Positions 1-15,525 of a DNA stretch of 64,000 nt are shown here, piece after piece. This DNA is from Erysipelotrichaceae bacterium (GTDB taxonomy: Bacteria > Bacillota_I > Bacilli_A > Erysipelotrichales > Erysipelotrichaceae), in NCBI GenBank assembly GCA_963678045.2, contig CAXXCK010000004.1, positions 17,380 to 81,379 on the forward strand, given 5' to 3'. Positions within the stretch are counted from its first letter, which is position 1. Every line of letters begins with the position of its first letter. The translations under genes were made by a program, and so were the position numbers. The notes under the pieces are model-generated. The model was not told where the DNA came from. It was given only the letters and a program-made list of their open reading frames with translations, and did no database searches.

Positions 1-652
1 TGCGATATCCTTCAGGATCCAGCTCTTTACGGCGCATCATACGTCTGTGGTAAGCCTCATCGATAAAGCGATTATCCATGTATGTGGAGTGATGAGTCAG
101 AACATCCGGGTCCTGGCGATCAAAGAACGCTTTCTTGATCCAGTGTTCTTTATTAACTGGGTTGAACGTGATCTTCAGCTGATAGAAAAGACCGTCTGGT
201 AAAGCACCACGTAGACGGTCATCAAGTATTTCAAAGTTTTGTTTTGTCAGCTCGGTTCCTTCTTCACACCAGATATCCGTGATCGATCCGTTCTCAACCG
301 TGATCGACTTCAGCTTCTCCATTTCCTTTTCGCTGTTCATACCGCGAAACAAGATGCTGTTGCCATTCACGCAGCGGATCCTCAAAGGATTGGATGTTGC
401 TATAAAGTACTTTCCTAAGCCAAGCTTATTGATTGCCTTGACCATTTCGGCAAAGGTACTGTCTCTGTTGGTTACTTCTGCTTTCCTCACACACAGAAGG
501 TTTCTGCCCTTCTCAGAGAGGATTCTAAGAACATATTGCTGTGCTGTATCAACAGACTTTCCTGATCCGGCTGATCCTTTCATAATTACATACCGATGCT
601 TGCTTTTATGCACCGGTTTGAAGATTTGGTTTGACCTGACGACAACGTTCAT
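1..652 (-). CDS. terL: Terminase large subunit, N-terminal part (PBSX/Terminase_3-like). Continues beyond the window.
   Basis: My own translation of the minus strand from ATG 652..650 gives MNVVVRSNQIFKPVHKSKHRYVIMKGSAGSGKSVDTAQQYVL... with a Walker A motif (GSAGSGKS). The frame is open to position 1. The ATG overlaps the terS stop (ATGA). This ORF is not in the supplied track because it has no stop inside the window. Confidence 0.85.
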   Translation of the reverse strand, partial: MNVVVRSNQIFKPVHKSKHRYVIMKGSAGSGKSVDTAQQYVLRILSEKGRNLLCVRKAEVTNRDSTFAEMVKAINKLGLGKYFIATSNPLRIRCVNGNSILFRGMNSEKEMEKLKSITVENGSITDIWCEEGTELTKQNFEILDDRLRGALPDGLFYQLKITFNPVNKEHWIKKAFFDRQDPDVLTHHSTYMDNRFIDEAYHRRMMRRKELDPEGYR

Positions 653-1101
653 TTGTCATCATCCTCTTCCCCGTAGTCGATTGCTATATTCAGCTGCATT
701 TCGACTTTCTCTTCAACCTTGTCTGTGTACATCCCAAGATGCTTTCCGAGAAGTTCCAGGGCTTTTGTAGCACCCTTAGAATCGAATGTATATTCACCTG
801 ACTCAATCATTCTCTTTTCTTCAGAATCCCAGCGCATGACCGGCTCAGGTTCTTTCGATTTCTTCACGACATCAACTAGCTGTTGGATCACCCAATCGGC
901 AGTTATTGCCAGTCTTTCGGTCTGTTCCTTCTGCAGTTCTTTTATACGCGCGAGGACCTTAGGATTCCTTAAGAGGTCGCTTGCTTGTACATGAGCTGTC
1001 TTCATACTGTATCCAGCCCTTATTGCTGCCTGAGTACCTATGTAGTCAATAGTGTACTCACGACAGAATAGTTCATGTCTATTATTTAGTTTAGCCTTCA
1101 T
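649..1101 (-). CDS. terS: Terminase small subunit
   Basis: KLNNRHELFCREYTIDYIGTQAAIRAGYSMKTAHVQASDLLRNPKVLARIKEL matches the conserved N-terminal HTH of Firmicute phage small terminases. I moved the start to ATG 1101, which has a GGAGG 5 nt upstream, instead of the track start 1125. Confidence 0.8.
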   Translation of the reverse strand: MKAKLNNRHELFCREYTIDYIGTQAAIRAGYSMKTAHVQASDLLRNPKVLARIKELQKEQTERLAITADWVIQQLVDVVKKSKEPEPVMRWDSEEKRMIESGEYTFDSKGATKALELLGKHLGMYTDKVEEKVEMQLNIAIDYGEEDDDK

Positions 1102-1111
1102 TTTAACCTCC

Positions 1112-1137
1112 AAACAAAAAAGCACTTATTGTGCTTT
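1112..1137 (-). terminator. Rho-independent terminator after ORF 1136..1729, immediately upstream of the terS RBS
   Basis: Stem AAGCAC (1120..1125) pairs with GTGCTT (1131..1136) around loop TTATT. On the minus strand it is followed by TTTTGTTTG. Confidence 0.5.
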
Positions 1138-1729
1138 ATTTTACCGAATCCCATCTGATCAGTGCTTCGCTTTTCTTCTTATCTGTTCTAATATCGAGTT
1201 CTTTTCTCTTTAAATCAATTAAAGCTACAAAATATTTCTCAATATCTTTTAGAATATCTTTTGTTGATATCGAAATTGGGTTGTTAACCGGTCCACGCAT
1301 AGAATAATCGAATTTCATCGACTTCTCTCTAAAGTATCCAGCAAGTTGACTCAAATGAGTAAAATACTCATTTATAAAATACAGATCAATATCATAACGA
1401 CCAGTACTCCTTGATACTTCACTATGATCTTTTGTTAATCGAGTTTCTTCAAAAAACATATTCACAAGATCGTTTAGGTCTGTGCCAACTAGTTTTTCCT
1501 TGAGAGACTTTAGCTCTCTTTTGAGATCCAATATCTCACTATCACTTAATTTGATCAGTTTATCAGCGTTTTTCTGAATAGTATCATTTATTGCATTATC
1601 AATCACTTCTGAAGTAGTAGGCTTTAGGCTTAACACTAAGTTCTTTACACTTTGATTAAGTAATAATCTTATCTCATCTTGTTTTCGAATTGTTTCCGAT
1701 ATTTCCTTATCATAATCAACTGTGCTCAT
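1136..1729 (-). CDS. Hypothetical 197-aa charged, coiled-coil-like protein (prophage cargo)
   Basis: Long ORF with RBS AAAGGGG upstream of ATG 1729. The product is K/E/D/L-rich with heptad-like stretches. I recognise no family. The DNA is AT-rich. Confidence 0.6.
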   Translation of the reverse strand: MSTVDYDKEISETIRKQDEIRLLLNQSVKNLVLSLKPTTSEVIDNAINDTIQKNADKLIKLSDSEILDLKRELKSLKEKLVGTDLNDLVNMFFEETRLTKDHSEVSRSTGRYDIDLYFINEYFTHLSQLAGYFREKSMKFDYSMRGPVNNPISISTKDILKDIEKYFVALIDLKRKELDIRTDKKKSEALIRWDSVK

Positions 1730-1777
1730 TTTTTAACCCCTTTTTAAGATTATTATACATCTATTGCCAGAACATTA

Positions 1778-1806
1778 AAGCCCAACTTGTATGTTGGGCT
1801 TTTTGG
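1778..1806 (-). terminator. Stem-loop terminator between the two cargo genes; looks bidirectional
   Basis: AAAGCCCAAC (1778..1787) pairs with GTTGGGCTTT (1794..1803) around a 6-nt loop, with T/A runs on both sides. Confidence 0.55.
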
Positions 1807-1902
1807 GTGTATCACTCATTAATTGGGTGGGGGATTGAATGATACATTAGCATAATACCACACAAACTTATGCCACATGGGGCAAATAATTCCTATAACA
1901 AG

Positions 1903-2718
1903 TCAAAGTCTCATATCACTTTTAAATTCTTCAACAGATTTCCTCCATTTCAAGAAGTCATTCAAGAACGATTCATATAAAAGGGAGATTATGCTTGCTT
2001 GCATTAGGTAATTAATGCTTAGCTTTGTTATTGATATGTATAATCCTACAATCGTTACAACCAACCGAGTGAACTTTATTAAAGTGGAAACTGCAAAATC
2101 ACTAACAGAGGGTAAAACTCTAATATAGAAAGTATCATCCAGTAGCGTCTGAATCTTTTCTACAGTAATCCAGAACATAAACTCAATGGAAAGGCATACA
2201 GTTACTTTCAAATCAATTCCTAGATTAAATAGTCCAAGCGTATTGTATGGAATAATCCATACTGAGTAAGCCAAAATTGGTAGGAATGTTATTCCGAATT
2301 TTCTATATGATCTCCAGGTGAAAGTCTCAACATCCAGACCATACCAATCCATGTTGTCATATGCCATGATCACTACACTTAACGTGATAAATTTAAAGAC
2401 CCACATTATTAGCAGAATTATCGATGTATATACAAGATTATCTTTCACTAAATACAAAATTAGACCGTCAATAATCCATGTGATTGGATAAGCCAGAGAT
2501 AGAACCCATATAGTTACGAAGAAAGCCATGCCTAAAGCATCTAGTACACTTTCAATTAATCTAGAAAAAAATGTAATCAAATGCATCAATCCTTTCATAA
2601 TGTCTCCAAGTATTCGCTTTGATAAGTTAAATGTATTGATGATTATGTTAAAAGTCTTGACAATTATTTCTTTCAAAGAACACATTATCAACTCCGAAAC
2701 AACTCGAACATTTTTCAT
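1903..2718 (-). CDS. Hypothetical polytopic membrane protein, 271 aa (prophage cargo)
   Basis: The sequence is almost entirely hydrophobic helices (FFVTIWVLSLAYPITWIIDGLILYL, TSIILLIMWVFKFITLSVVIMAY, ITFLPILAYSVWIIPYNTLGLF and others). The region is very AT-rich. The start codon is uncertain because the RBS is weak. Confidence 0.6.
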   Translation of the reverse strand: MKNVRVVSELIMCSLKEIIVKTFNIIINTFNLSKRILGDIMKGLMHLITFFSRLIESVLDALGMAFFVTIWVLSLAYPITWIIDGLILYLVKDNLVYTSIILLIMWVFKFITLSVVIMAYDNMDWYGLDVETFTWRSYRKFGITFLPILAYSVWIIPYNTLGLFNLGIDLKVTVCLSIEFMFWITVEKIQTLLDDTFYIRVLPSVSDFAVSTLIKFTRLVVTIVGLYISITKLSINYLMQASIISLLYESFLNDFLKWRKSVEEFKSDMRL

Positions 2719-2761
2719 ATATTTCTATGATCCTAACTACATTTTATTGTATCTTATTCTT

Positions 2762-3196
2762 TCAATCATTTGCATTATACTTTCCCCCTTTGCTCGTTTT
2801 ATCAACTATTGAATAGTCGATTTTCCTCCAAATCGTCTTTCGATCAAAATGATATTTTGTTTCCATTTCATATATCCCAATTTTGTTGATGTACTTATCG
2901 ATCACAATGCTTCTAATCGGCTCCTCTGGCGCGTCCTCCAATGAATCTATGAAATTCGATACCAAGAAAACATTTCTTTGATTGTACTCCAACTCCTTCT
3001 CGAGTATCGTTAATCGTTCAAGATTATCATAAATCACCTCCTCCCTCTTCTTTGGATTCTCAGGAATCCTTGCTATGCTCCTACCGGCTTTGAATCTCTT
3101 TGTGTCGAGATCCTCAAGCTCAAGTTTTATTCGTTCAACCGAAGCTACGAAGTGTTCATAGTTCTCAAGTGCAATTTTTAGATCCTTTGCCTCCAT
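2762..3196 (-). CDS. Putative late-gene transcriptional activator (RinA/ArpU/DUF1492-like, sigma region-4-like C-terminus)
   Basis: It sits last in the early operon before the packaging genes. The C-terminus IRSIVIDKYINKIGIYEMETKYHFDRKTIWRKIDYSI resembles a region-4 HTH. The start was moved to ATG 3196, which has GAGGTGGTGAGG upstream. Confidence 0.45.
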   Translation of the reverse strand: MEAKDLKIALENYEHFVASVERIKLELEDLDTKRFKAGRSIARIPENPKKREEVIYDNLERLTILEKELEYNQRNVFLVSNFIDSLEDAPEEPIRSIVIDKYINKIGIYEMETKYHFDRKTIWRKIDYSIVDKTSKGGKYNAND

Positions 3197-3206
3197 CCTC
3201 ACCACC

Positions 3207-3644
3207 TCAGAACGGCAGATCATCTGGATCTATATCCAGCAATGTCTGCCCTGTTTCAAATAGCATTTCTTCTATTGATACCTCTATCTCTGATTCATAC
3301 CGGTTACAATCCTGAATGATAGCCGGTGATTGCGATTCATCTGATGCAAACTTCTCTTCATGCTGAATTTCGGTTTGTTTCGTTTTGGGAGATTTCGAGA
3401 GCCTGACGATTGCGAAGATCATTACCTGGAGCGCCCCTTCGTACCGGCTTAGGCCAACACCGGTGATCTTATCGATTGAGATTTCGTCGCCGTCTTTAAG
3501 AACAATTGAATTCGTAGCACAGACCCTCGCGTAGTTCTTCTCATCAGGTTTTTCTTTGTTGTAGTCACGAATCCCGAAGGTTGTCTTGCCCCCATTACTT
3601 GCCTTGACGTAGTTGATCCGGTACGAGTTTAATAGGTTGATCAC
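3207..3644 (-). CDS. ssb: Divergent single-stranded DNA-binding protein
   Basis: The C-terminal tail ...DIDPDDLPF matches the canonical acidic SSB tip (DDD-I/L-PF). It is preceded by a disordered acidic linker. The N-terminal ~95 aa could be an OB fold but is not a canonical SSB sequence. Confidence 0.5.
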   Translation of the reverse strand: MINLLNSYRINYVKASNGGKTTFGIRDYNKEKPDEKNYARVCATNSIVLKDGDEISIDKITGVGLSRYEGALQVMIFAIVRLSKSPKTKQTEIQHEEKFASDESQSPAIIQDCNRYESEIEVSIEEMLFETGQTLLDIDPDDLPF

Positions 3645-3838
3645 TTTGCACCTTCAAGCCACTTGATGCACTCTTCTCTATTGTCAAACTCTTCAGTCCA
3701 GGCATTGCCGTTGCAGTTGTCAATTCCAATGTATGATCCTGTTACATCCTGGACCCAGAACTTTCCGTATGGATTTCGCTTACTGATGATATTTTTTGCT
3801 TGTGCTCTTCCTACTTCTTGGACTTCTGGATTAGTCAT
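3641..3838 (-). CDS. Hypothetical small phage protein
   Basis: ORF in the operon frame. ATG 3838 has AGGGGAG upstream, and the track start 3862 is also possible. It is stop/start coupled to its neighbours. Confidence 0.5.
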   Translation of the reverse strand: MTNPEVQEVGRAQAKNIISKRNPYGKFWVQDVTGSYIGIDNCNGNAWTEEFDNREECIKWLEGAK

Positions 3839-4019
3839 GATCTCCCCTTTCAACGATTTCAATGATGTCTAAGACAACCTTTGCCTTATGATTGTTTTCC
3901 TGGATGTATGTCTGGGATCCTCCATGCTGTAGAGCTCCCAGTGCCAACATCTCATGTTCAAGCTTGTGCTCATTTAACCATTTCAGCATTTCCTCTTTTG
4001 TCGATTTCAGTCCCTTCAT
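3831..4019 (-). CDS. Hypothetical small phage protein (62 aa)
   Basis: ORF with GGAGGAAA RBS before ATG 4019, packed tightly in the operon. Confidence 0.5.
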   Translation of the reverse strand: MKGLKSTKEEMLKWLNEHKLEHEMLALGALQHGGSQTYIQENNHKAKVVLDIIEIVERGDHD

Positions 4020-4674: not shown

Positions 4675-5406
4675 CTAGAACGGTTCCTTTCTCAGATCAT
4701 AGACTTGACCCGGGAGTGCAGCTGATGTTTTTATACCAGTTTGTTCACTGATTTCACGGACCATTCTTGCCTCATTTGAGTTGCTGTCAGATAGGTGAAT
4801 CAGGATGATTTCCTTTGTTTTATTCAGGTCACACAGCCTCAGAAATCGCTTAGTTGTGTCCAAATGCATGTGGTAGAGAGACGTTGTTTTCCTGCCATTT
4901 ATATTGTTTTGGTTTGCGATCTCTTCGATGTTGTTACACTCGATCATGATATAGTCAATGTTCACAAACCGGTATTCCAGATATGCGCTGTCAGTGATGA
5001 ACAGAAGCGTCTCATCGGTCTGACGATCAATGATCATGAACCCTAACGGATTTGAGGCGTTATGGACGACGTTAAACGGATAGACGAGTATTTGCTTATT
5101 GAAGTCTTCAATTAGGCCAATAGTCAAAGGATGCGTCTTTCCCGGCTTCTTAATGCTGATTGCTTCGAGAGTTTCCTTCATTGAATAAAGGGTGATTCCG
5201 ACTTCGACATACTCTTTGGCGAACCTGCAATGATCACCATGTTCATGGGTGATAAAACATCCTAGAATGTCATCCCACCTTGATGGGAACGCCTCAATGA
5301 ATTTCTTAAGAGGCGTTCCACATTCAAGCAACAATATCTTTCCGTTATCGAATTCAAGCGCGTAACCGTTACCGGTAGATGAACTTCCGAAGACGGTTAA
5401 TTTCAT
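4675..5406 (-). CDS. MBL-fold metallo-hydrolase (phage recombination-associated nuclease)
   Basis: Has the HEHGDH motif (ITHEHGDHCRF) and sits directly downstream of RecT. Confidence 0.8.
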   Translation of the reverse strand: MKLTVFGSSSTGNGYALEFDNGKILLLECGTPLKKFIEAFPSRWDDILGCFITHEHGDHCRFAKEYVEVGITLYSMKETLEAISIKKPGKTHPLTIGLIEDFNKQILVYPFNVVHNASNPLGFMIIDRQTDETLLFITDSAYLEYRFVNIDYIMIECNNIEEIANQNNINGRKTTSLYHMHLDTTKRFLRLCDLNKTKEIILIHLSDSNSNEARMVREISEQTGIKTSAALPGQVYDLRKEPF

Positions 5407-5408
5407 CT

Positions 5409-6284
5409 TTAGAACGGATCAGCCGGGCTTTCTTGCTCGGGCTTATGCTCTTCTACCGGTTCTGGGGAGATCGTTTTTGAGAAGGCAGTTTCTGGGATCA
5501 CCAGGGTTGGTTTCTCATCTTCGTCATCCTCATCATCAGAAAAATATCCAGATTCATTGAATGCTTTGACAAGGATAGGAGCATCGCTTGAAGAGTTGAT
5601 CAGCATCTTGAGGCCTCTGTTGATTACCGTCCTCATTGCCATTTGATCCGGGAATTCAGCATGAACCAATTGCTGCTTTGACTTCGATTTGTTCCATGCA
5701 GCGAGGATCTGTGAACGATCCATGATTTCCCATTTCTGCTCACCATTCTTTAGGCTTACGATGCAATATGCACCGAGAAGATTTTCTTTGGTGATGATCC
5801 GTTTGAATCGGTCTTTGCGGACGTGCGAGACTACTCGTTCCTCACCGTTAATGATTTCGGTGACAACTTCATCCCCTTCAGTAACACATTGAGCTTGTAC
5901 ACTTACGACATTGGCGAATCGTTTTGCTACCGCTGTTGTGCCAAAGTATGAACGCTGAAACGCAAGCTGCTTTCCATAGACGATGAAATACCCTTGGTTC
6001 TTATCAACGGACAATCCTTGAATGATCATATTGCGGATCGCCTTAACGATACTTCCCTGATCACATACAGCCAGAGCCGGTTGATGGTTCATATCCTCAA
6101 TGGTCAGAAGCTTTAGGTATGCTGACTGAATCGCATTCCCAACGGCGTAATCATCAGGCAAGACAAGATTACTTTCTGAGATCAGTTTCTCGATATCTTG
6201 CTTTGCATATTCGGTAATGGACAGTGCCTTTTTAGCGCCTTCTGTCGGTTTGGTAACTGCTGGAGTTTGTGTTTGTTGTGTCAT
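5409..6284 (-). CDS. recT: RecT-family single-strand annealing protein
   Basis: The core ALAVCDQGSIVKAIRNMIIQGLSVDKNQGYFIVYGKQLAFQRSYFGTTAVAKR fits the RecT pattern, and the tail is acidic. Confidence 0.75.
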   Translation of the reverse strand: MTQQTQTPAVTKPTEGAKKALSITEYAKQDIEKLISESNLVLPDDYAVGNAIQSAYLKLLTIEDMNHQPALAVCDQGSIVKAIRNMIIQGLSVDKNQGYFIVYGKQLAFQRSYFGTTAVAKRFANVVSVQAQCVTEGDEVVTEIINGEERVVSHVRKDRFKRIITKENLLGAYCIVSLKNGEQKWEIMDRSQILAAWNKSKSKQQLVHAEFPDQMAMRTVINRGLKMLINSSSDAPILVKAFNESGYFSDDEDDEDEKPTLVIPETAFSKTISPEPVEEHKPEQESPADPF

Positions 6285-11212: not shown

Positions 11213-11461
11213 ATGCACATTTTCTTCATGACACGAAGAGATATTTATGAAGCAATGGACATTGCACCATCAATGGCAACAAAGATGATCAAGCTCTACA
11301 ACGAAGACGTAACTAAACGTGGATACACTCTAATCAACAATGGCACAGTTCATATAAAGACGTTTTGTGAGTTTCACCATATTGATCATGATCAGTTAGT
11401 TGAGAATATTCTAGAGATTAGAAAAATCAGACCGAAGTACTCAAGAACGAGTCCTCTATAG
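11213..11461 (+). CDS. Small protein, possibly DNA-binding (excisionase/DUF3173-like)
   Basis: It starts 3 nt after the cI stop. RRDIYEAMDIAPSMATKMIKLYNEDVTKRGY resembles small HTH proteins found next to recombinases. The assignment is weak. Confidence 0.4.
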   Translation: MHIFFMTRRDIYEAMDIAPSMATKMIKLYNEDVTKRGYTLINNGTVHIKTFCEFHHIDHDQLVENILEIRKIRPKYSRTSPL

Positions 11462-11470
11462 GTCCAAGAT

Positions 11471-12487
11471 ATGAAAATATTCAACCCAGCAGGTTCAAGA
11501 CAAAGCAAGAAAGGAAGAAGAGAAAGATTAGTTGATTTTTCGATTAAGCATCCCTATATCTTTTCATTTGCTTTGATTGTATTGGAGATATCGACATTCA
11601 GTAATAACAATTGGGTCATCGCTGTTATAAATGGATTGATGACACTTACTTGCATCATTTTAGTATTTGCACTAAATAAAACAAAGGATAGTTCGGATGT
11701 TTTTTATAGTCTGACCATAATCTTGGCACCACTATTTCTTATTATCACTTACATAATGACGCTTATTGGAAAGTTCCTTATACCTGTGATTTTTCAGATC
11801 GGATCCATTGAATCATGGATAGGCTTTGCCGGATCGATATTAGGAGGAACTATTACTATGATAGCTGTCTCCTACACTATAAGTAGTGAATCAAGACTAA
11901 AGAGAAAAGAAATAGCACTGACATCGATGCCTAATTTGCTTATTGGATTATCTGGTTCATACGCGCTTGGTATAAGCTCAACCACTCTTAATGGAGAGCA
12001 AGTTCAAGACGATTTCTACTCTATTCATATAGAACCAACTATCGAAAATATATCAGCATATCCAGCCCAGAACCTAAAATTCACTCGTGCAGAAGTAATG
12101 ATTCACGAATCATTTCTCTATGGTCTTGATAAGAAGACCAAGCCAGTGAGTCTGATATCCAAACTCGATCAATTCAATGCCGATAAGATAGTGAATATTT
12201 TTATTCAAAAAGAAAATAAGATTTCGTTCCCAATCATGTTTGATTATCCAATACCAAAAGATAAAAATGATGACGTGAACATGGTACTAATAGAAATTGA
12301 CTTTGAATATCAAGATATGATGCAATGCTTTACACATAAGAAGAAATGTAAGATCGAATTTACTCCAGGTTTTCCTAAACCAGATAGAAAGTCAAAAAAG
12401 AAAGTACACCCAATAATTATTATCCCAGAGATTACGAACACACCTTTGAAAAATGAAGAACTTGCAGATGCATTTAAAACACACTGA
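11471..12487 (+). CDS. Hypothetical membrane protein: 4-5 N-terminal TM helices plus a ~190-aa soluble C-terminal domain
   Basis: Hydrophobic helices occupy residues ~25-150, followed by a mixed beta-like domain and a Lys-rich tail. It starts 9 nt after the preceding gene. The DNA is very AT-rich. I recognise no family. Confidence 0.6.
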   Translation: MKIFNPAGSRQSKKGRRERLVDFSIKHPYIFSFALIVLEISTFSNNNWVIAVINGLMTLTCIILVFALNKTKDSSDVFYSLTIILAPLFLIITYIMTLIGKFLIPVIFQIGSIESWIGFAGSILGGTITMIAVSYTISSESRLKRKEIALTSMPNLLIGLSGSYALGISSTTLNGEQVQDDFYSIHIEPTIENISAYPAQNLKFTRAEVMIHESFLYGLDKKTKPVSLISKLDQFNADKIVNIFIQKENKISFPIMFDYPIPKDKNDDVNMVLIEIDFEYQDMMQCFTHKKKCKIEFTPGFPKPDRKSKKKVHPIIIIPEITNTPLKNEELADAFKTH

Positions 12488-12581
12488 TGGGGCCAGGGTG
12501 TCGTGTAGCAATCTTCAGGAAAGGAGAATGACTACATAGACATCATAGTATAATTACAGAAAATAACAATTGGGAGAAACC

Positions 12582-13562
12582 ATGAAGGAAAAGCCATTCT
12601 TAACATTTAATTCACAGATGAAGTATCTAAGGGATAAGAAAAAAATTGAATGCTATGGTAGCAACCATAAAACTTTCTTAATAAAGTATGGTTATTTCAA
12701 TCTCATAAATGCCTATAAATTCCCTTTTGTGAAAGGATTCGATACAGATGGAGATCACATCTATATTGGTGGAACCAGTATTGAGCATTTCGTTTTACTA
12801 AAACAATTTGATGATAACCTTAGAATTCTTCTTCTACAAACACTTACCAGAGTTGAAGAAGAAATCAGAAATTTGGTTTCGTATAAACTAGATCATACAA
12901 ACGGTAAATCACTTGAATGGTATGATGTTCAATCTTATAACCCAAGAAAAGATACTCAAGATATTATAAGAGTAATTTCGAGGTGCTTCAGTTCTATTGA
13001 TAAAATGAAAAACGATTACGTTTCGCACTACACCGATAAATACGGAAAGGTCCCAACATGGATCTTCACTAAAGTAATAAAGTTCTCAGAGCTAATTGAT
13101 GTTATTGGAATATCTCGTGTTGAAATTCTGGAAGCATTGTGCACTCTCTATAATCTCAAGGATAAAAGGGGGATTAACAAACACAGCCTTCTAATAAACT
13201 CTCTACATACTATCAGATCAGTTAGAAACTCTTGTGCTCACAATGAAAGAATAGTATTCTTTAGAGATCCTGACAGCCGAATGAATTTGCCATTTGAAAC
13301 CTTCATTGTTAGTCCCAATAGATATAAAAATGACCGTGATAAACTTTTAATCGACTTGATAGTATCGCTAAAGTATTTCATGGACTCGAGAGATTATGAA
13401 AGTTTAATTAATCAGATTATCTCAATGCTTGATAGCCTAGCCACTCAGATAAATCCAAGCGCCTTTGATGCAATAAGAGGTAGTCTTGGCATTAAAAGAA
13501 TGACAGATTTGGTCTTCCTGAGGGATCAAAACCGCAATAAAATCCTCTATAACAATTTCTAG
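12582..13562 (+). CDS. Abi_2 (AbiD/AbiF-like) abortive-infection protein with a HEPN Rx4H motif
   Basis: N-terminus KPFLTFNSQMKYLRDKK...YGYFNLINAYK and the motif IRSVRNSCAHNERI (DNA 13221..13250), where RNSCAH is the Rx4H signature. I moved the start to ATG 12582, after GGGAGA. Confidence 0.75.
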   Translation: MKEKPFLTFNSQMKYLRDKKKIECYGSNHKTFLIKYGYFNLINAYKFPFVKGFDTDGDHIYIGGTSIEHFVLLKQFDDNLRILLLQTLTRVEEEIRNLVSYKLDHTNGKSLEWYDVQSYNPRKDTQDIIRVISRCFSSIDKMKNDYVSHYTDKYGKVPTWIFTKVIKFSELIDVIGISRVEILEALCTLYNLKDKRGINKHSLLINSLHTIRSVRNSCAHNERIVFFRDPDSRMNLPFETFIVSPNRYKNDRDKLLIDLIVSLKYFMDSRDYESLINQIISMLDSLATQINPSAFDAIRGSLGIKRMTDLVFLRDQNRNKILYNNF

Positions 13563-13688: not shown

Positions 13689-15257
13689 ATGAAAAAAGCT
13701 GCCGCATACGCTCGCTTCAGTAGTGACAATCAGCGCCAGGAAAGCATCGATGCTCAAGTAAGGGCCATTCAGGACTACTGTGCAAAGTGTGAACTCCATC
13801 TGATCAAGATTTACCAGGACGAAGCGATGAGCGCCACTAACGATCAGCGGGATCAGTTCCTTCAGATGATTGATGACGCAAAGAAGCATGAGTTCGAGTA
13901 CGTAATCGTCCACAAGCTGGACCGATTCGCGCGTAACCGGTATGACAGTGCGTTTTACAAACGCGAGCTGAGGGTTCAAGGCGTCAGGATCTTGTCGGTC
14001 CTCGAGAATCTAGATGACAGCCCGGAATCGATCATACTTGAATCAGTTCTGGAGGGCATGGCCGAATACTACTCAAAGAACCTTGCCCGGGAAGTTCGCA
14101 AAGGCCAAAAAGAAAATGCTCTAAAGGGGATCCACAACGGTGGCATTCCTCCATTTGGATATAGCGTGGTCAATAAGATTTTAGCGATCAATGAGCAGGA
14201 AGCTGAGATCGTCCGGATGATCTTCAAGCTATATAATGAAGGCAGCGGGTATACAACGATCAGTGATACCCTGAATTCTTTGGGATATAAGACGAGAGCC
14301 GGAAGACCGTTTTCAATCAATAGTCTCTATGATCTGATCCGGAACGAGAAGTATACCGGCACTTACGTTTTCAACAAGCGTGAGTCTAAGAGCACCGGTA
14401 ATCGAAAATACAAACCGGATGATCAGATCGTAAGAATAGAGGGCGCGTTCCCTGCTATCATTTCAAGAGAACTTTGGGATATGGTTCAAGAGATCATATC
14501 AAAGAAAACGAACGTGCGGAGGCTGGCAACCAGAGAGTACTTGCTCAAAGGGAAGATCGTTTGTGCTATCTGTGGCGGTACCTATGTCGGCAGCGGCTAT
14601 GTTCTTCACAATGATAGTGATCACTACACCTATTCATGTTCAACCAGAAGAAGATCCAAAGAGTGTGATAACAAACCGGTTTATGCCGGCTATCTTGAAG
14701 ATTACATAGTCCACCATATTATTGGTAACTTCATGACAGACCAGTACATTGAGAATGTCACCAAGAAATTCAATGAGGATAGTGCAAAAGAACTTGATGA
14801 GAACATGGCTATTCTGGCCAGAGTGGATAAGCAAACTGCTAAACAACAACAAAAAGAAACCAAGCTCTGGGAACTTTTCTATGATGGGATCATCACGAAA
14901 GCAGTGTTCCAGGAGAAACAGGTTGAGCTTGAGAACGAGCTTAAGGATCTGGAAAAAGTAAAATCGGAAGTAATGAACAAGAAGGTCGTTAAGACAATGT
15001 CGCCGGAGTCCTTCACAGAGTTTTTGCTTGATCTGCAGAACAAAGCTAAGGATGATAATCAAAACACAAAAAAACTGCTCATTGCAGCTTTTGTCGACCG
15101 TGTCGTAGTCAATAAGGAAATAATTGATCTCCATTTCCGAGATTATATCAAGGAAACAAAGACCAATTATAGTGATGCGACTGGTGGAGATGAGGGGAGT
15201 CGAACCCCTGTCCAAATTGCGTCCACATTCAACCCTCTACAGTTTAGTCTGAGGTGA
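13689..15257 (+). CDS. int: Large serine recombinase (phage integrase)
   Basis: It has a resolvase N-terminal domain (AAYARFSSDNQ...VHKLDRFARN), a recombinase domain, and a zinc-ribbon (CAICGG...YSCSTRRRSKECDN). A coiled coil follows. The last 76 nt overlap ssrA in antisense. Confidence 0.9.
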   Translation: MKKAAAYARFSSDNQRQESIDAQVRAIQDYCAKCELHLIKIYQDEAMSATNDQRDQFLQMIDDAKKHEFEYVIVHKLDRFARNRYDSAFYKRELRVQGVRILSVLENLDDSPESIILESVLEGMAEYYSKNLAREVRKGQKENALKGIHNGGIPPFGYSVVNKILAINEQEAEIVRMIFKLYNEGSGYTTISDTLNSLGYKTRAGRPFSINSLYDLIRNEKYTGTYVFNKRESKSTGNRKYKPDDQIVRIEGAFPAIISRELWDMVQEIISKKTNVRRLATREYLLKGKIVCAICGGTYVGSGYVLHNDSDHYTYSCSTRRRSKECDNKPVYAGYLEDYIVHHIIGNFMTDQYIENVTKKFNEDSAKELDENMAILARVDKQTAKQQQKETKLWELFYDGIITKAVFQEKQVELENELKDLEKVKSEVMNKKVVKTMSPESFTEFLLDLQNKAKDDNQNTKKLLIAAFVDRVVVNKEIIDLHFRDYIKETKTNYSDATGGDEGSRTPVQIASTFNPLQFSLR

Positions 15258-15525
15258 TAATCACCGGGTTTGCGTCAGACAGGCTCCCGATGATTTGTTC
15301 TACTGGTGTTTAGCTAAGCTTTGTAAGAACGACTGGCTTAACGATCCCATCTTTTTTGTGCCGTCTATAAACCCAATGGGCAGGGTTCAAAGAGACAGCT
15401 GCGCTCCGCTAGGAGACTAAGCAGCGAAACTTAATTTGTTTCCGTTTAAAGTTTTTTGGCAATTAGGTCGCCACTCCACTGCAGATTGAATCCAACAGAC
15501 AACCTGTCGAAACCATGACACCCCC
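15182..15525 (-). ncRNA. ssrA: tmRNA (SsrA)
   Basis: On the minus strand the 5' end is GGGGGTGTCATGGTTTCGACAGG and the 3' end is GGACAGGGGTTCGACTCCCCTCATCTCCACCA (T-arm, acceptor and CCA). The tag frame reads ...AAC GGA AAC AAA TTA AGT TTC GCT GCT TAG, which is ...NGNKLSFAA-stop. Confidence 0.9.

What the first reader, a model, noticed from the sequence alone, without database searches (positions are those of the whole stretch)
1136..2761. AT-rich two-gene cargo (polytopic membrane protein + coiled-coil protein) wedged between the phage late activator and terS
In Firmicute siphophages a RinA/ArpU-type late activator normally sits directly upstream of terS. Here about 1.6 kb is interposed. It holds a 271-aa protein made almost entirely of hydrophobic helices (1903..2718) and a 197-aa charged, heptad-rich protein (1136..1729). 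I can place neither in a known family. Spot GC counts by hand give 15/60 (25%) for line 2401..2460, against 30/60 (50%) for line 5401..5460 in the recombination module. Each gene ends in its own stem-loop (1778..1806 and 1112..1137). The second gene has its own TATAAT (complement of 1752..1757). They therefore look like separately expressed morons rather than packaging genes. Position, composition and a membrane plus soluble pairing fit a horizontally acquired exclusion/defence cassette or a lysis-timing cassette that has not been described.
Basis: partly seen in the sequence, partly recalled or inferred. Interest (0 to 1): 0.6.

Follow-up and report, generated by a model that had tools for sequence, protein, structure and literature searches.

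The report
Orphan cargo genes before phage terminase
Two real but family-less genes, one for a multi-pass membrane protein and one for a helical soluble protein, sit as foreign AT-rich cargo in a prophage slot where related phages carry other extra genes; this is an ordinary kind of phage cargo and its function is unknown.

Summary
Two minus-strand ORFs (1903..2718, 271 aa; 1136..1729, 197 aa) fill 1.66 kb between a late-regulator-like gene and terS. Their GC is 32% (GC3 26-34%), against 39-45% in neighbouring genes and 46.7% in the genome. That puts the block in the lowest 0.08% of genome windows.

Both ORFs are far too long to arise by chance. Neither has any detectable relative. Pfam, PHROGs, NCBIfam, PADLOC, PDB sequences and 50,697 phage genomes gave nothing. 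A 5.8-billion-cluster word search returned only the proteins themselves. For the membrane protein, an exhaustive phmmer run over 1.84 billion representatives also found only itself. Single-sequence AlphaFold models are all-helical but unreliable.

Homology to the nearest relative stops at window 2826, inside the regulator's last codons, exactly where GC drops. In ten related prophages the same slot holds 0-5 unrelated genes, so it is a swappable cargo slot. Earlier notes of this scan report the same slot in other genomes.

A 173-nt spacer with a strong hairpin separates the two genes, which argues against an obligate pair. A defence or exclusion role is plausible but has no direct support. A lysis role is unlikely, because the lysis genes lie at the far end of the prophage. 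Verdict: new members of a known kind (prophage morons), of modest interest.

The parts
2762..3223 (-). Late-regulator-like gene. The likely true start is the ATG at 3196 (MEAKDL...), where all homologs begin. Its last ~19 codons (below ~2826) belong to the foreign AT-rich block.
   Evidence: PHROG 36 'transcriptional regulator' matches all 7 aligned family members (best 3.4e-7), and PHROG 248 'transcriptional activator' matches 3 of 7. The gene is the last one before the packaging genes in every relative. hhalign against 80alpha RinA is collinear over the full length but weak (probability 17%, E 1.5e-3). DNA homology to L003 ends at window 2826.
1903..2718 (-). orf271, an orphan polytopic membrane protein. 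The public gene call is the 260-aa form starting at M12 (ATG 2685, with GGAG 6 nt upstream). A third possible start is M41 (ATG 2598, GGAG 5 nt upstream).
   Evidence: Searches give the ORF and its possible starts. Hydropathy peaks lie at about residues 58-80, 96-119, 166-186 and 208-230, with weaker ones at 141-163 and 236-250. The AlphaFold model shows six long helices at pLDDT 54. The protein matched only itself among 1.84 billion representatives.
1778..1806 (.). Strong 10-bp hairpin in the 173-nt spacer between the two genes. The U-run lies on the plus-strand side, so it is a bidirectional or antisense-oriented terminator-like element.
   Evidence: -15.7 kcal/mol (z -4.3) on the minus strand and -19.0 kcal/mol (z -3.9) on the plus strand, where UUUUU follows the stem.
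1752..1757 (-). TATAAT (-10-like hexamer) 22 nt upstream of the orf197 start, with only a poor -35 (TTTAAT). An AAGGGG ribosome site lies at 1741..1736.
   Evidence: The promoter scan did not list it as a two-hexamer site.
1136..1729 (-). orf197, an orphan soluble, charged, predicted all-helical protein with one heptad-patterned stretch (about residues 50-85).
   Evidence: The near-length word search found only the protein itself. The longer-length search found nothing. Nothing turned up in 60 relatives, in 399 genomes of the class, or in viral and metagenome contig scans.
1112..1137 (-). Weak intrinsic-terminator-like hairpin (7 bp) plus a U-run. It overlaps the orf197 stop codon and ends just before the terS GGAGG.
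   Evidence: -7.4 kcal/mol, z -1.55, and 15 of 200 shuffles fold as well.
649..1101 (-). terS (small terminase). The likely start is ATG 1101, behind GGAGG at 1110..1106. GC returns to 43% here.
   Evidence: Pfam Terminase_2 2.6e-27 and PHROG 51 7e-42.

Best explanation
The block from about 1102 to 2826 is dispensable, horizontally acquired cargo. It sits in the swappable slot at the boundary between the regulatory module and the packaging module of a temperate siphophage. The prophage is integrated at ssrA in a 2.04-Mb, 46.7%-GC genome.

Shown: both ORFs are real coding sequences. Their composition is foreign to both phage and host. Neither has a detectable relative anywhere searched. The homology break to the nearest relative coincides with the GC drop. 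Related prophages carry 0-5 different genes at this position.

Inferred, about 60:40: these are two stacked, independently expressed morons rather than one two-part system. orf197 carries its own -10-like box, a strong ribosome site and a leaky terminator. orf271 is probably read from upstream transcription.

Inferred mechanism, about 1 in 3: orf271 inserts into the cytoplasmic membrane with 4-6 helices. Several of these contain buried D, E, K or R residues, as in channel- or pore-type proteins. It would act in phage-phage conflict, either by blocking DNA entry of a superinfecting phage or by collapsing membrane potential as an abortive-infection effector. orf197 would be a cytoplasmic helical protein that either senses or regulates this, or does something unrelated.

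As both terminator-like hairpins are weak or lack a sense-strand U-run, the late transcript that must reach terS probably reads through both genes. They would then also be made late in the lytic cycle.
For: The ORFs are real. GC and GC3 are foreign, in the lowest 0.08% of genome windows. No family, phage or protein-database match exists beyond self.

The joint lies at 2826, inside the regulator's 3' end, and coincides with the GC drop. Slot content in relatives varies. L024 has an empty slot with a ~140-nt gap. L022 and L012 have a metallophosphoesterase. L010 has a metallophosphoesterase, a TIR-like protein, an HNH, a 252-aa protein and a 4-TM protein. L013 has a 276-aa protein plus a 4-TM protein. 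L014 has a 153-aa protein plus a TM-TPR protein. L023 has a low-GC 200-aa gene. In phage 80alpha, rinA and terS are only 186 nt apart.

A TIR-like gene in the same slot of a same-genus prophage (PADLOC TIR effector 5e-8) shows that conflict-type genes do land there.

Identical copies of the block, with the same flanks, occur in metagenome runs of two studies, so it is not an assembly artefact.
Against: No functional evidence of any kind exists. There is no defence-family hit, and no LexA box or phage operator in the block. Promoter-like sites do not exceed chance. The structure models are too poor to compare (pLDDT 47 and 54; fold searches empty). No RNA data are available.

Classic Gram-positive exclusion genes sit near the repressor or integrase, not here. 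The genes point the same way as the late operon and abut terS, which would also fit a late phage function. orf197 was not searched exhaustively, because only one such job was allowed.
Confidence: 0.6

Rival explanations
1. The two genes form one two-component system, a membrane effector plus a cytoplasmic sensor or regulator. It would be functionally analogous to RexAB or Kiwa-type membrane defences, with the gene order reversed.
For: The genes are adjacent, co-oriented, similarly AT-rich and apparently arrived in one block. Pairs of a soluble protein and a polytopic membrane protein recur in the same slot of same-genus prophages: L010 has 252 aa plus a 161-aa 4-TM protein, and L013 has 276 aa plus a 173-aa 4-TM protein. 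Earlier scan notes report Rex-like pairs in this slot in other genomes (these are unchecked leads).
Against: A 173-nt spacer with a -15.7 kcal/mol hairpin, a separate -10 box and a separate ribosome site lie between the genes. The pairs in L010 and L013 overlap instead. GC3 is 26% in one gene and 33.5% in the other. No sequence similarity to lambda RexA/RexB or to the relatives' pairs was found. Sizes and order differ from Rex: the membrane protein is 260-271 aa and comes first, and the soluble one is 197 aa. There is no PADLOC hit.
Confidence: 0.2
2. They are late phage-function genes, read as the first genes of the late operon. Examples would be a lysis-timing, antiholin or membrane-remodelling protein, or a packaging accessory.
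For: They have the same orientation as the late operon and lie directly upstream of terS. There is no room for a late promoter between orf197 and terS (34 nt), so late transcription must cross at least part of the block. Both terminator-like elements are leaky or lack a sense U-run.
Against: The holin-like, 220-aa and Rz/XhlA-like genes lie at the normal place at the far end of the prophage (G000 C4:554-1969). The two genes were found in none of the related prophages and terL-related viral contigs fetched here, although essential late functions are usually conserved. Their composition is foreign. There is no holin, spanin or packaging family hit. At 260-271 aa, orf271 is far larger than typical holins.
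Confidence: 0.12
3. They are decaying or non-functional leftovers of a recombination event, open by accident and without a role.
For: They have no homologs anywhere, so purifying selection cannot be shown. The copies in two studies are identical and give no variation to test.
Against: Open frames of 197 and 271 codons in 32%-GC DNA have chance probabilities of 1e-6 and 5.5e-9. The other five frames are closed. Ribosome sites are well placed. orf197 shows the GC1 > GC2 ~ GC3 coding signature.
Confidence: 0.08

Closest known systems
Morons of temperate phages (Hendrix/Juhala sense: extra genes with their own promoter and terminator, inserted between conserved genes)
   Same: The extra genes are present in one phage and absent at the same position in relatives. 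Their base composition deviates strongly. They are inserted at a module boundary. orf197 is flanked by a -10-like box and a terminator-like hairpin.
   Different: Expression from the repressed prophage is untested. orf271 has no recognisable promoter of its own, and its downstream hairpin lacks a U-run in the sense direction.
Cargo directly downstream of a late regulator, as with the stx genes between Q and the lysis genes of lambdoid phages (from general knowledge, not tested here)
   Same: Accessory genes are placed just after the late regulator, co-oriented with the late operon. Late transcription is therefore likely to read through them.
   Different: The regulator type (activator-like, not the Q antiterminator), the host group and the gene content are all different. 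There is no toxin similarity.
Lambda RexA/RexB exclusion pair, and the Rex-like pairs (soluble protein plus 4-TM protein) that earlier notes of this scan report in the same slot
   Same: A membrane protein sits next to a cytoplasmic protein as prophage cargo, and the slot is the same as in those notes.
   Different: There is no Pfam RexA/RexB hit and no sequence similarity. The order is reversed. The membrane protein is almost twice the size of RexB, and the soluble protein is 197 aa against 279 aa and is predicted all-helical. The genes are not overlapping but 173 nt apart.
Gram-positive superinfection-exclusion and abortive-infection membrane proteins (Sie2009, Ltp, AbiC/AbiP-type)
   Same: These are prophage-borne membrane proteins of low GC with no enzymatic domain.
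   Different: Those proteins are small (1-2 membrane helices or lipoproteins) and usually sit by the repressor or integrase. No PADLOC or Pfam match was found here.

Membership tests
Phage moron | The gene(s) are present in one phage and absent at the same position in related phages | tested here: met
   The slot holds 0-5 unrelated genes in 10 related prophages. None resembles orf271 or orf197. terL-related viral contigs also lack them.
Phage moron | Base composition differs from the surrounding phage genome | tested here: met
   GC is 32% against 39-45%, and GC3 is 26-34% against 43-51%. The block lies in the lowest 0.08% of genome windows.
Phage moron | Own promoter upstream of the gene | tested here: inconclusive
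   orf197 has a TATAAT at 1757..1752 but a poor -35. orf271 has none that is convincing. Promoter-like sites number 8 against 11.1 expected in shuffles.
Phage moron | Own factor-independent terminator downstream | tested here: inconclusive
   orf197 is followed by a weak hairpin plus a U-run (z -1.55). orf271 is followed by a strong hairpin (z -4.3), but its U-run is on the opposite strand.
Phage moron | Expressed from the repressed prophage | not testable with these tools
   No RNA run holding the stretch was listed.
RexAB-type exclusion system | Sequence membership in RexA (PF15969) and RexB (PF15968) | tested here: not met
   No Pfam hit at E <= 0.1. BLASTP and phmmer against lambda RexA/RexB gave chance-level scores only.
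RexAB-type exclusion system | Architecture: a ~280-aa soluble protein followed by an abutting ~145-aa 4-TM protein | tested here: not met
   The membrane protein (260-271 aa) comes first. The soluble protein is 197 aa. A 173-nt spacer with a hairpin separates them.
RexAB-type exclusion system | RexA-like fold of the soluble partner | tested here: inconclusive
   The single-sequence model has pLDDT 47. Foldseek against the PDB gave nothing with E <= 0.001.
Known anti-phage defence systems (PADLOC-DB 2.0) | Match to any defence-protein model | tested here: not met
   No families at E <= 1 for either protein.
Holin / lysis cassette | Holin-family match, small size, and position next to the endolysin | tested here: not met
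   No Pfam or PHROG lysis hit. The protein is 260-271 aa. The holin-like and Rz/XhlA-like genes lie at the far end of the prophage.
   The position criterion is met in all relatives. PHROG 36 matches 7 of 7 and PHROG 248 matches 3 of 7. No Pfam or NCBIfam hit. hhalign against 80alpha RinA gives 17% probability and E 1.5e-3.

The most novel reading that the evidence does not exclude
orf271 and orf197 together form a previously unseen two-part membrane-based phage-exclusion or abortive-infection system. It would be unrelated in sequence to RexAB, Kiwa or any catalogued defence, and would be carried in the regulator-terS cargo slot.
Probability: 0.12. Interest if true: 0.6.

Novelty: new member of a known kind. 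Interest (0 to 1): 0.3.

Why it matters
This adds one more well-delimited case, with an exact joint and a census of relatives, to the picture that the gap between the late regulator and terS in Firmicute-type temperate phages is a swap-in slot for accessory genes. The slot is therefore a sensible place to mine for new phage-conflict genes. The two proteins are true singletons. The membrane protein has no relative among 1.84 billion representative proteins. If either gene gave a phenotype, it would define a new family. Without homologs, a usable structure model or expression data, nothing here makes an open question testable beyond the routine experiment of cloning the genes and challenging with phages.

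Tried and rejected
Family and sequence searches.
- Pfam, PHROGs, NCBIfam and PADLOC gave nothing for either protein.
- tblastn and megablast against 50,697 phage records gave nothing.
- The word-indexed search of 5.8 billion clusters found only self hits, and the 'longer' search for orf197 found none.
- Exhaustive phmmer for orf271 found only itself. Only one such job was allowed, so orf197 was not searched this way.
- Six-frame searches of 60 relatives with both proteins, and of 399 genomes of the class with orf197, gave only chance-level matches, with E 7e-4 to 9e-3 per genome.
- Viral and metagenome contig scans gave nothing.
- The PDB sequence search gave nothing: the best hit was E 0.1 for orf197, and orf271 had none.

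Structure.
- Single-sequence AlphaFold models had pLDDT 47 and 54.
- Foldseek against the PDB gave no hit with E <= 0.001. These results are treated as meaningless.

- The ESM Atlas could not read the sequences.

Rex lead from earlier notes.
- No sequence similarity to lambda RexA/RexB was found, for this pair or for the L010 and L013 pairs.

Regulation.
- No Cheo/LexA box and no copy of the phage's CTTAAG-type operator lies in the block.

Insertion marks.
- No flanking direct repeats, tRNA relic or Rfam match was found.
- There is no second copy of the block in the genome.

Late promoter.
- No motif is shared between the region downstream of the L003 regulator and this block.

Expression.
- No RNA holder was listed.
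- The contigs laid on the stretch only show identical copies in metagenome runs of two studies. No cargo-free variant was seen.

Literature.
- Two literature searches found no paper on this slot.

Host.
- The host taxon was not identified. The anonymised tallies suggest class Bacilli, since 0.8-Mb genomes that read TGA as a codon fall in the same class.
Full report
What is there.

All phage genes in the first 10 kb of the window lie on the minus strand. Read in their own direction, the order starts with a recombination and replication set: a Rad50-like ATPase, RecT, an MBL-fold protein and a DnaD-like loader. Three small genes follow, then a 153-aa regulator-like gene (2762..3223). Next come orf271 (1903..2718), a 173-nt spacer and orf197 (1136..1729). 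terS (Pfam Terminase_2, 2.6e-27) and terL (Terminase_3, 7e-50) close the series.

The window is G000 contig C4:17380-81379. The rest of the prophage lies to the left on the same contig. It comprises portal, capsid and tail genes and a lysis set at C4:554-1969. A serine recombinase abuts the tmRNA gene at 15182..15525.

Check of the observation.

The two genes have 31.5% and 32.2% GC, with GC3 of 26% and 33.5%. Flanking phage genes have 39-45% GC and GC3 of 43-51%. The genome has 46.7% GC. Only 0.08% of 1626-nt genome windows are as AT-rich.

At this composition a stop-free run of 197 codons has probability 1e-6, and one of 271 codons has probability 5.5e-9. In 2000 shuffles the longest open run was 159 codons, against 273 observed. 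Both are therefore real genes, or were until very recently.

Two descriptions are overstated. First, orf271 has about four clear and up to six possible membrane helices, not a fully hydrophobic chain. Its N-terminal ~57 residues and C-terminal ~33 residues are amphipathic. Second, orf197 is charged and predicted helical, but only residues ~50-85 show a heptad pattern.

The start of orf271 is uncertain. The ATG at 2718 has a poor ribosome site. The ATGs at 2685 (the public 260-aa call, P0001) and at 2598 both have GGAG at a good distance.

Signals.

The hairpin at 1778..1806 is strong (-15.7 kcal/mol, z -4.3). Its U-run follows the stem on the plus strand; in the sense direction only UUUAAUGUU follows. 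It is thus a bidirectional terminator at best, or an element that blocks antisense transcription. I could not explain its orientation.

The hairpin at 1119..1137 is weak (z -1.55) but has a U-run. It sits between the orf197 stop codon and the terS ribosome site. Only 34 nt separate orf197 from terS. A late promoter therefore cannot lie between them, and late transcription must cross at least part of the block.

orf197 has a TATAAT (1757..1752) and an AAGGGG ribosome site. Over the whole region, however, promoter-like sites are no more frequent than in shuffles. No LexA box and no copy of the phage's own operator occurs in the block.

Are there relatives?

None was found for either protein.
- Pfam, PHROGs, NCBIfam and PADLOC gave nothing.
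- The 50,697 phage genomes gave nothing.
- The word-indexed search of 5.8 billion clusters gave only the proteins themselves.
- PDB sequences gave nothing.
- Viral and metagenome contig scans gave nothing.
- Six-frame searches of 60 relatives, and for orf197 of 399 genomes of the class, gave nothing.
- For orf271, phmmer over 1.84 billion representatives returned only itself.

With no alignment to draw on, the AlphaFold models are poor (pLDDT 47 and 54). Fold searches gave nothing usable.

Is the slot variable?

Yes. The regulator has homologs in six loci: L003 (74% identity), L010, L011, L012, L013 and L014. terS has homologs in L022-L025. Between the regulator-like gene and the packaging genes these loci carry the following.
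- L024: nothing, with a gap of about 140 nt.
- L022 and L012: one metallophosphoesterase gene. In L012 an HNH gene follows.
- L023: one low-GC 200-aa gene.
- L025: two genes.
- L014: three genes, including a membrane-anchored TPR protein.
- L013: a 276-aa protein plus an overlapping 173-aa 4-TM protein.
- L011: a metallophosphoesterase, a DUF6941 protein and an XhlA-like protein.
- L010: a metallophosphoesterase, a TIR-like protein (PADLOC TIR effector 5e-8), an HNH, and a 252-aa protein plus an overlapping 161-aa 4-TM protein.

None of these proteins resembles orf271 or orf197. Thirty terL-related viral contigs also lack both genes, and they differ in what precedes terS. For reference, rinA and terS of phage 80alpha are 186 nt apart.

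The joint.

DNA homology with L003 runs through the regulator gene and stops at window 2826. That is about 19 codons before the regulator's stop codon, exactly where GC falls. The foreign block therefore replaced the regulator's C-terminal tail and extends to the terS ribosome site, spanning about 1102-2826.

There are no flanking direct repeats, no tRNA relic, no Rfam match and no second copy in the genome. This looks like recombination at a module boundary rather than a site-specific insertion. The packaging module here is of the Terminase_2/Terminase_3 type. The regulator's closest homologs precede HNH/Terminase_4 modules instead. This position is thus also a mosaic joint between modules.

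Same-genus genomes and their prophages have 30-37% GC. A phage of a lower-GC relative is therefore a plausible donor; this is an inference.

Independent occurrence.

The block, with identical flanks, is present in metagenome assemblies from two studies. One of these may be the source of this genome. No variant without the block was seen, and no RNA run was listed.

One system or two genes?

The 173-nt spacer, the strong hairpin, the separate -10 box and ribosome site, and the different GC3 values argue for two stacked genes. The soluble-plus-membrane pairs in L010 and L013 overlap, as coupled genes usually do. An earlier follow-up on the other cargo island of this same prophage (11213-13562) also concluded that it was stacked cargo (an unchecked note). 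I put stacked against paired at about 60:40.

Function.

Nothing measured bears on function. The position, the foreign composition, the membrane protein with charged residues inside its hydrophobic helices, and the TIR-like gene in the same slot of a relative all make a role in phage-phage conflict the single most likely class. I put that at about 1 in 3.

A late phage function is about 1 in 8. The gene orientation favours it. The lack of conservation and the presence of a normal lysis set elsewhere argue against it.

Earlier notes of this scan report the same swap-in slot in at least six other genomes, including Rex-like pairs. I tested that lead by sequence only and found no similarity to lambda RexA/RexB. 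The architecture here also differs from Rex.

Verdict.

This is a new member of a known kind and is of modest interest.

Noticed in passing
L010:5098-6338 (G007, same genus) and L013:2871-4164 (G003, same genus): In the same regulator-terS slot, two same-genus prophages carry a soluble protein (252 or 276 aa) whose gene overlaps that of a 4-TM protein (161 or 173 aa). None has a Pfam, PHROG or PADLOC hit, and they show no sequence similarity to each other or to lambda RexA/RexB. The architecture matches the 'Rex-like' pairs that earlier scan notes report in this slot.
   Followed up: partly
L010:3693-4553: A 286-aa protein in the slot matches the PADLOC 'TIR effector' model (5.4e-8) and weakly matches Pfam nucleoside 2-deoxyribosyltransferase. 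It also matches PHROGs 10872 and 3634, both of unknown function, at about 1e-39.
   Followed up: no
L010:2482-3603, L011:1584-2807 (-), L012:2712-3893, L022:4284-5432: A 373-407-aa protein with a calcineurin-like metallophosphoesterase domain directly follows the regulator in several related prophages. This looks like a semi-conserved first gene of the late region.
   Followed up: no
window 1778-1806: The strong hairpin between the two cargo genes has its U-run on the plus strand, antisense to all nearby genes. No plus-strand gene or Rfam RNA explains it.
   Followed up: partly
window 2762-3223 and 649-1125: The longest-ORF starts are probably wrong for both flanking genes. Regulator homologs all begin at MEAKDL/MTTDD (ATG 3196). 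terS most likely starts at ATG 1101, behind GGAGG, not at GTG 1125.
   Followed up: partly
L003 (JAAXWV010000306.1, 2.3 kb): The closest relative of the regulator (74% identity) lies on a short contig binned into a 'Candidatus Roizmanbacteria' MAG. The contig carries Firmicute-type phage genes (methylase, HNH and homologs of window genes 3207-3862), so it is probably mis-binned phage DNA. After the regulator it has a terminator-like hairpin and a different 54-aa ORF.
   Followed up: partly
G000 C4:554-1969 (left of the window): The prophage's lysis region holds a 151-aa holin-like protein (PHROG 14914, 3e-4), a 220-aa protein with no PHROG hit and a 92-aa membrane protein (weak Rz-like/XhlA-like hits). 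The contig starts about 550 nt beyond this region, and no second att copy was found in the genome.
   Followed up: partly
The phage therefore carries at least two AT-rich cargo islands.
   Followed up: no
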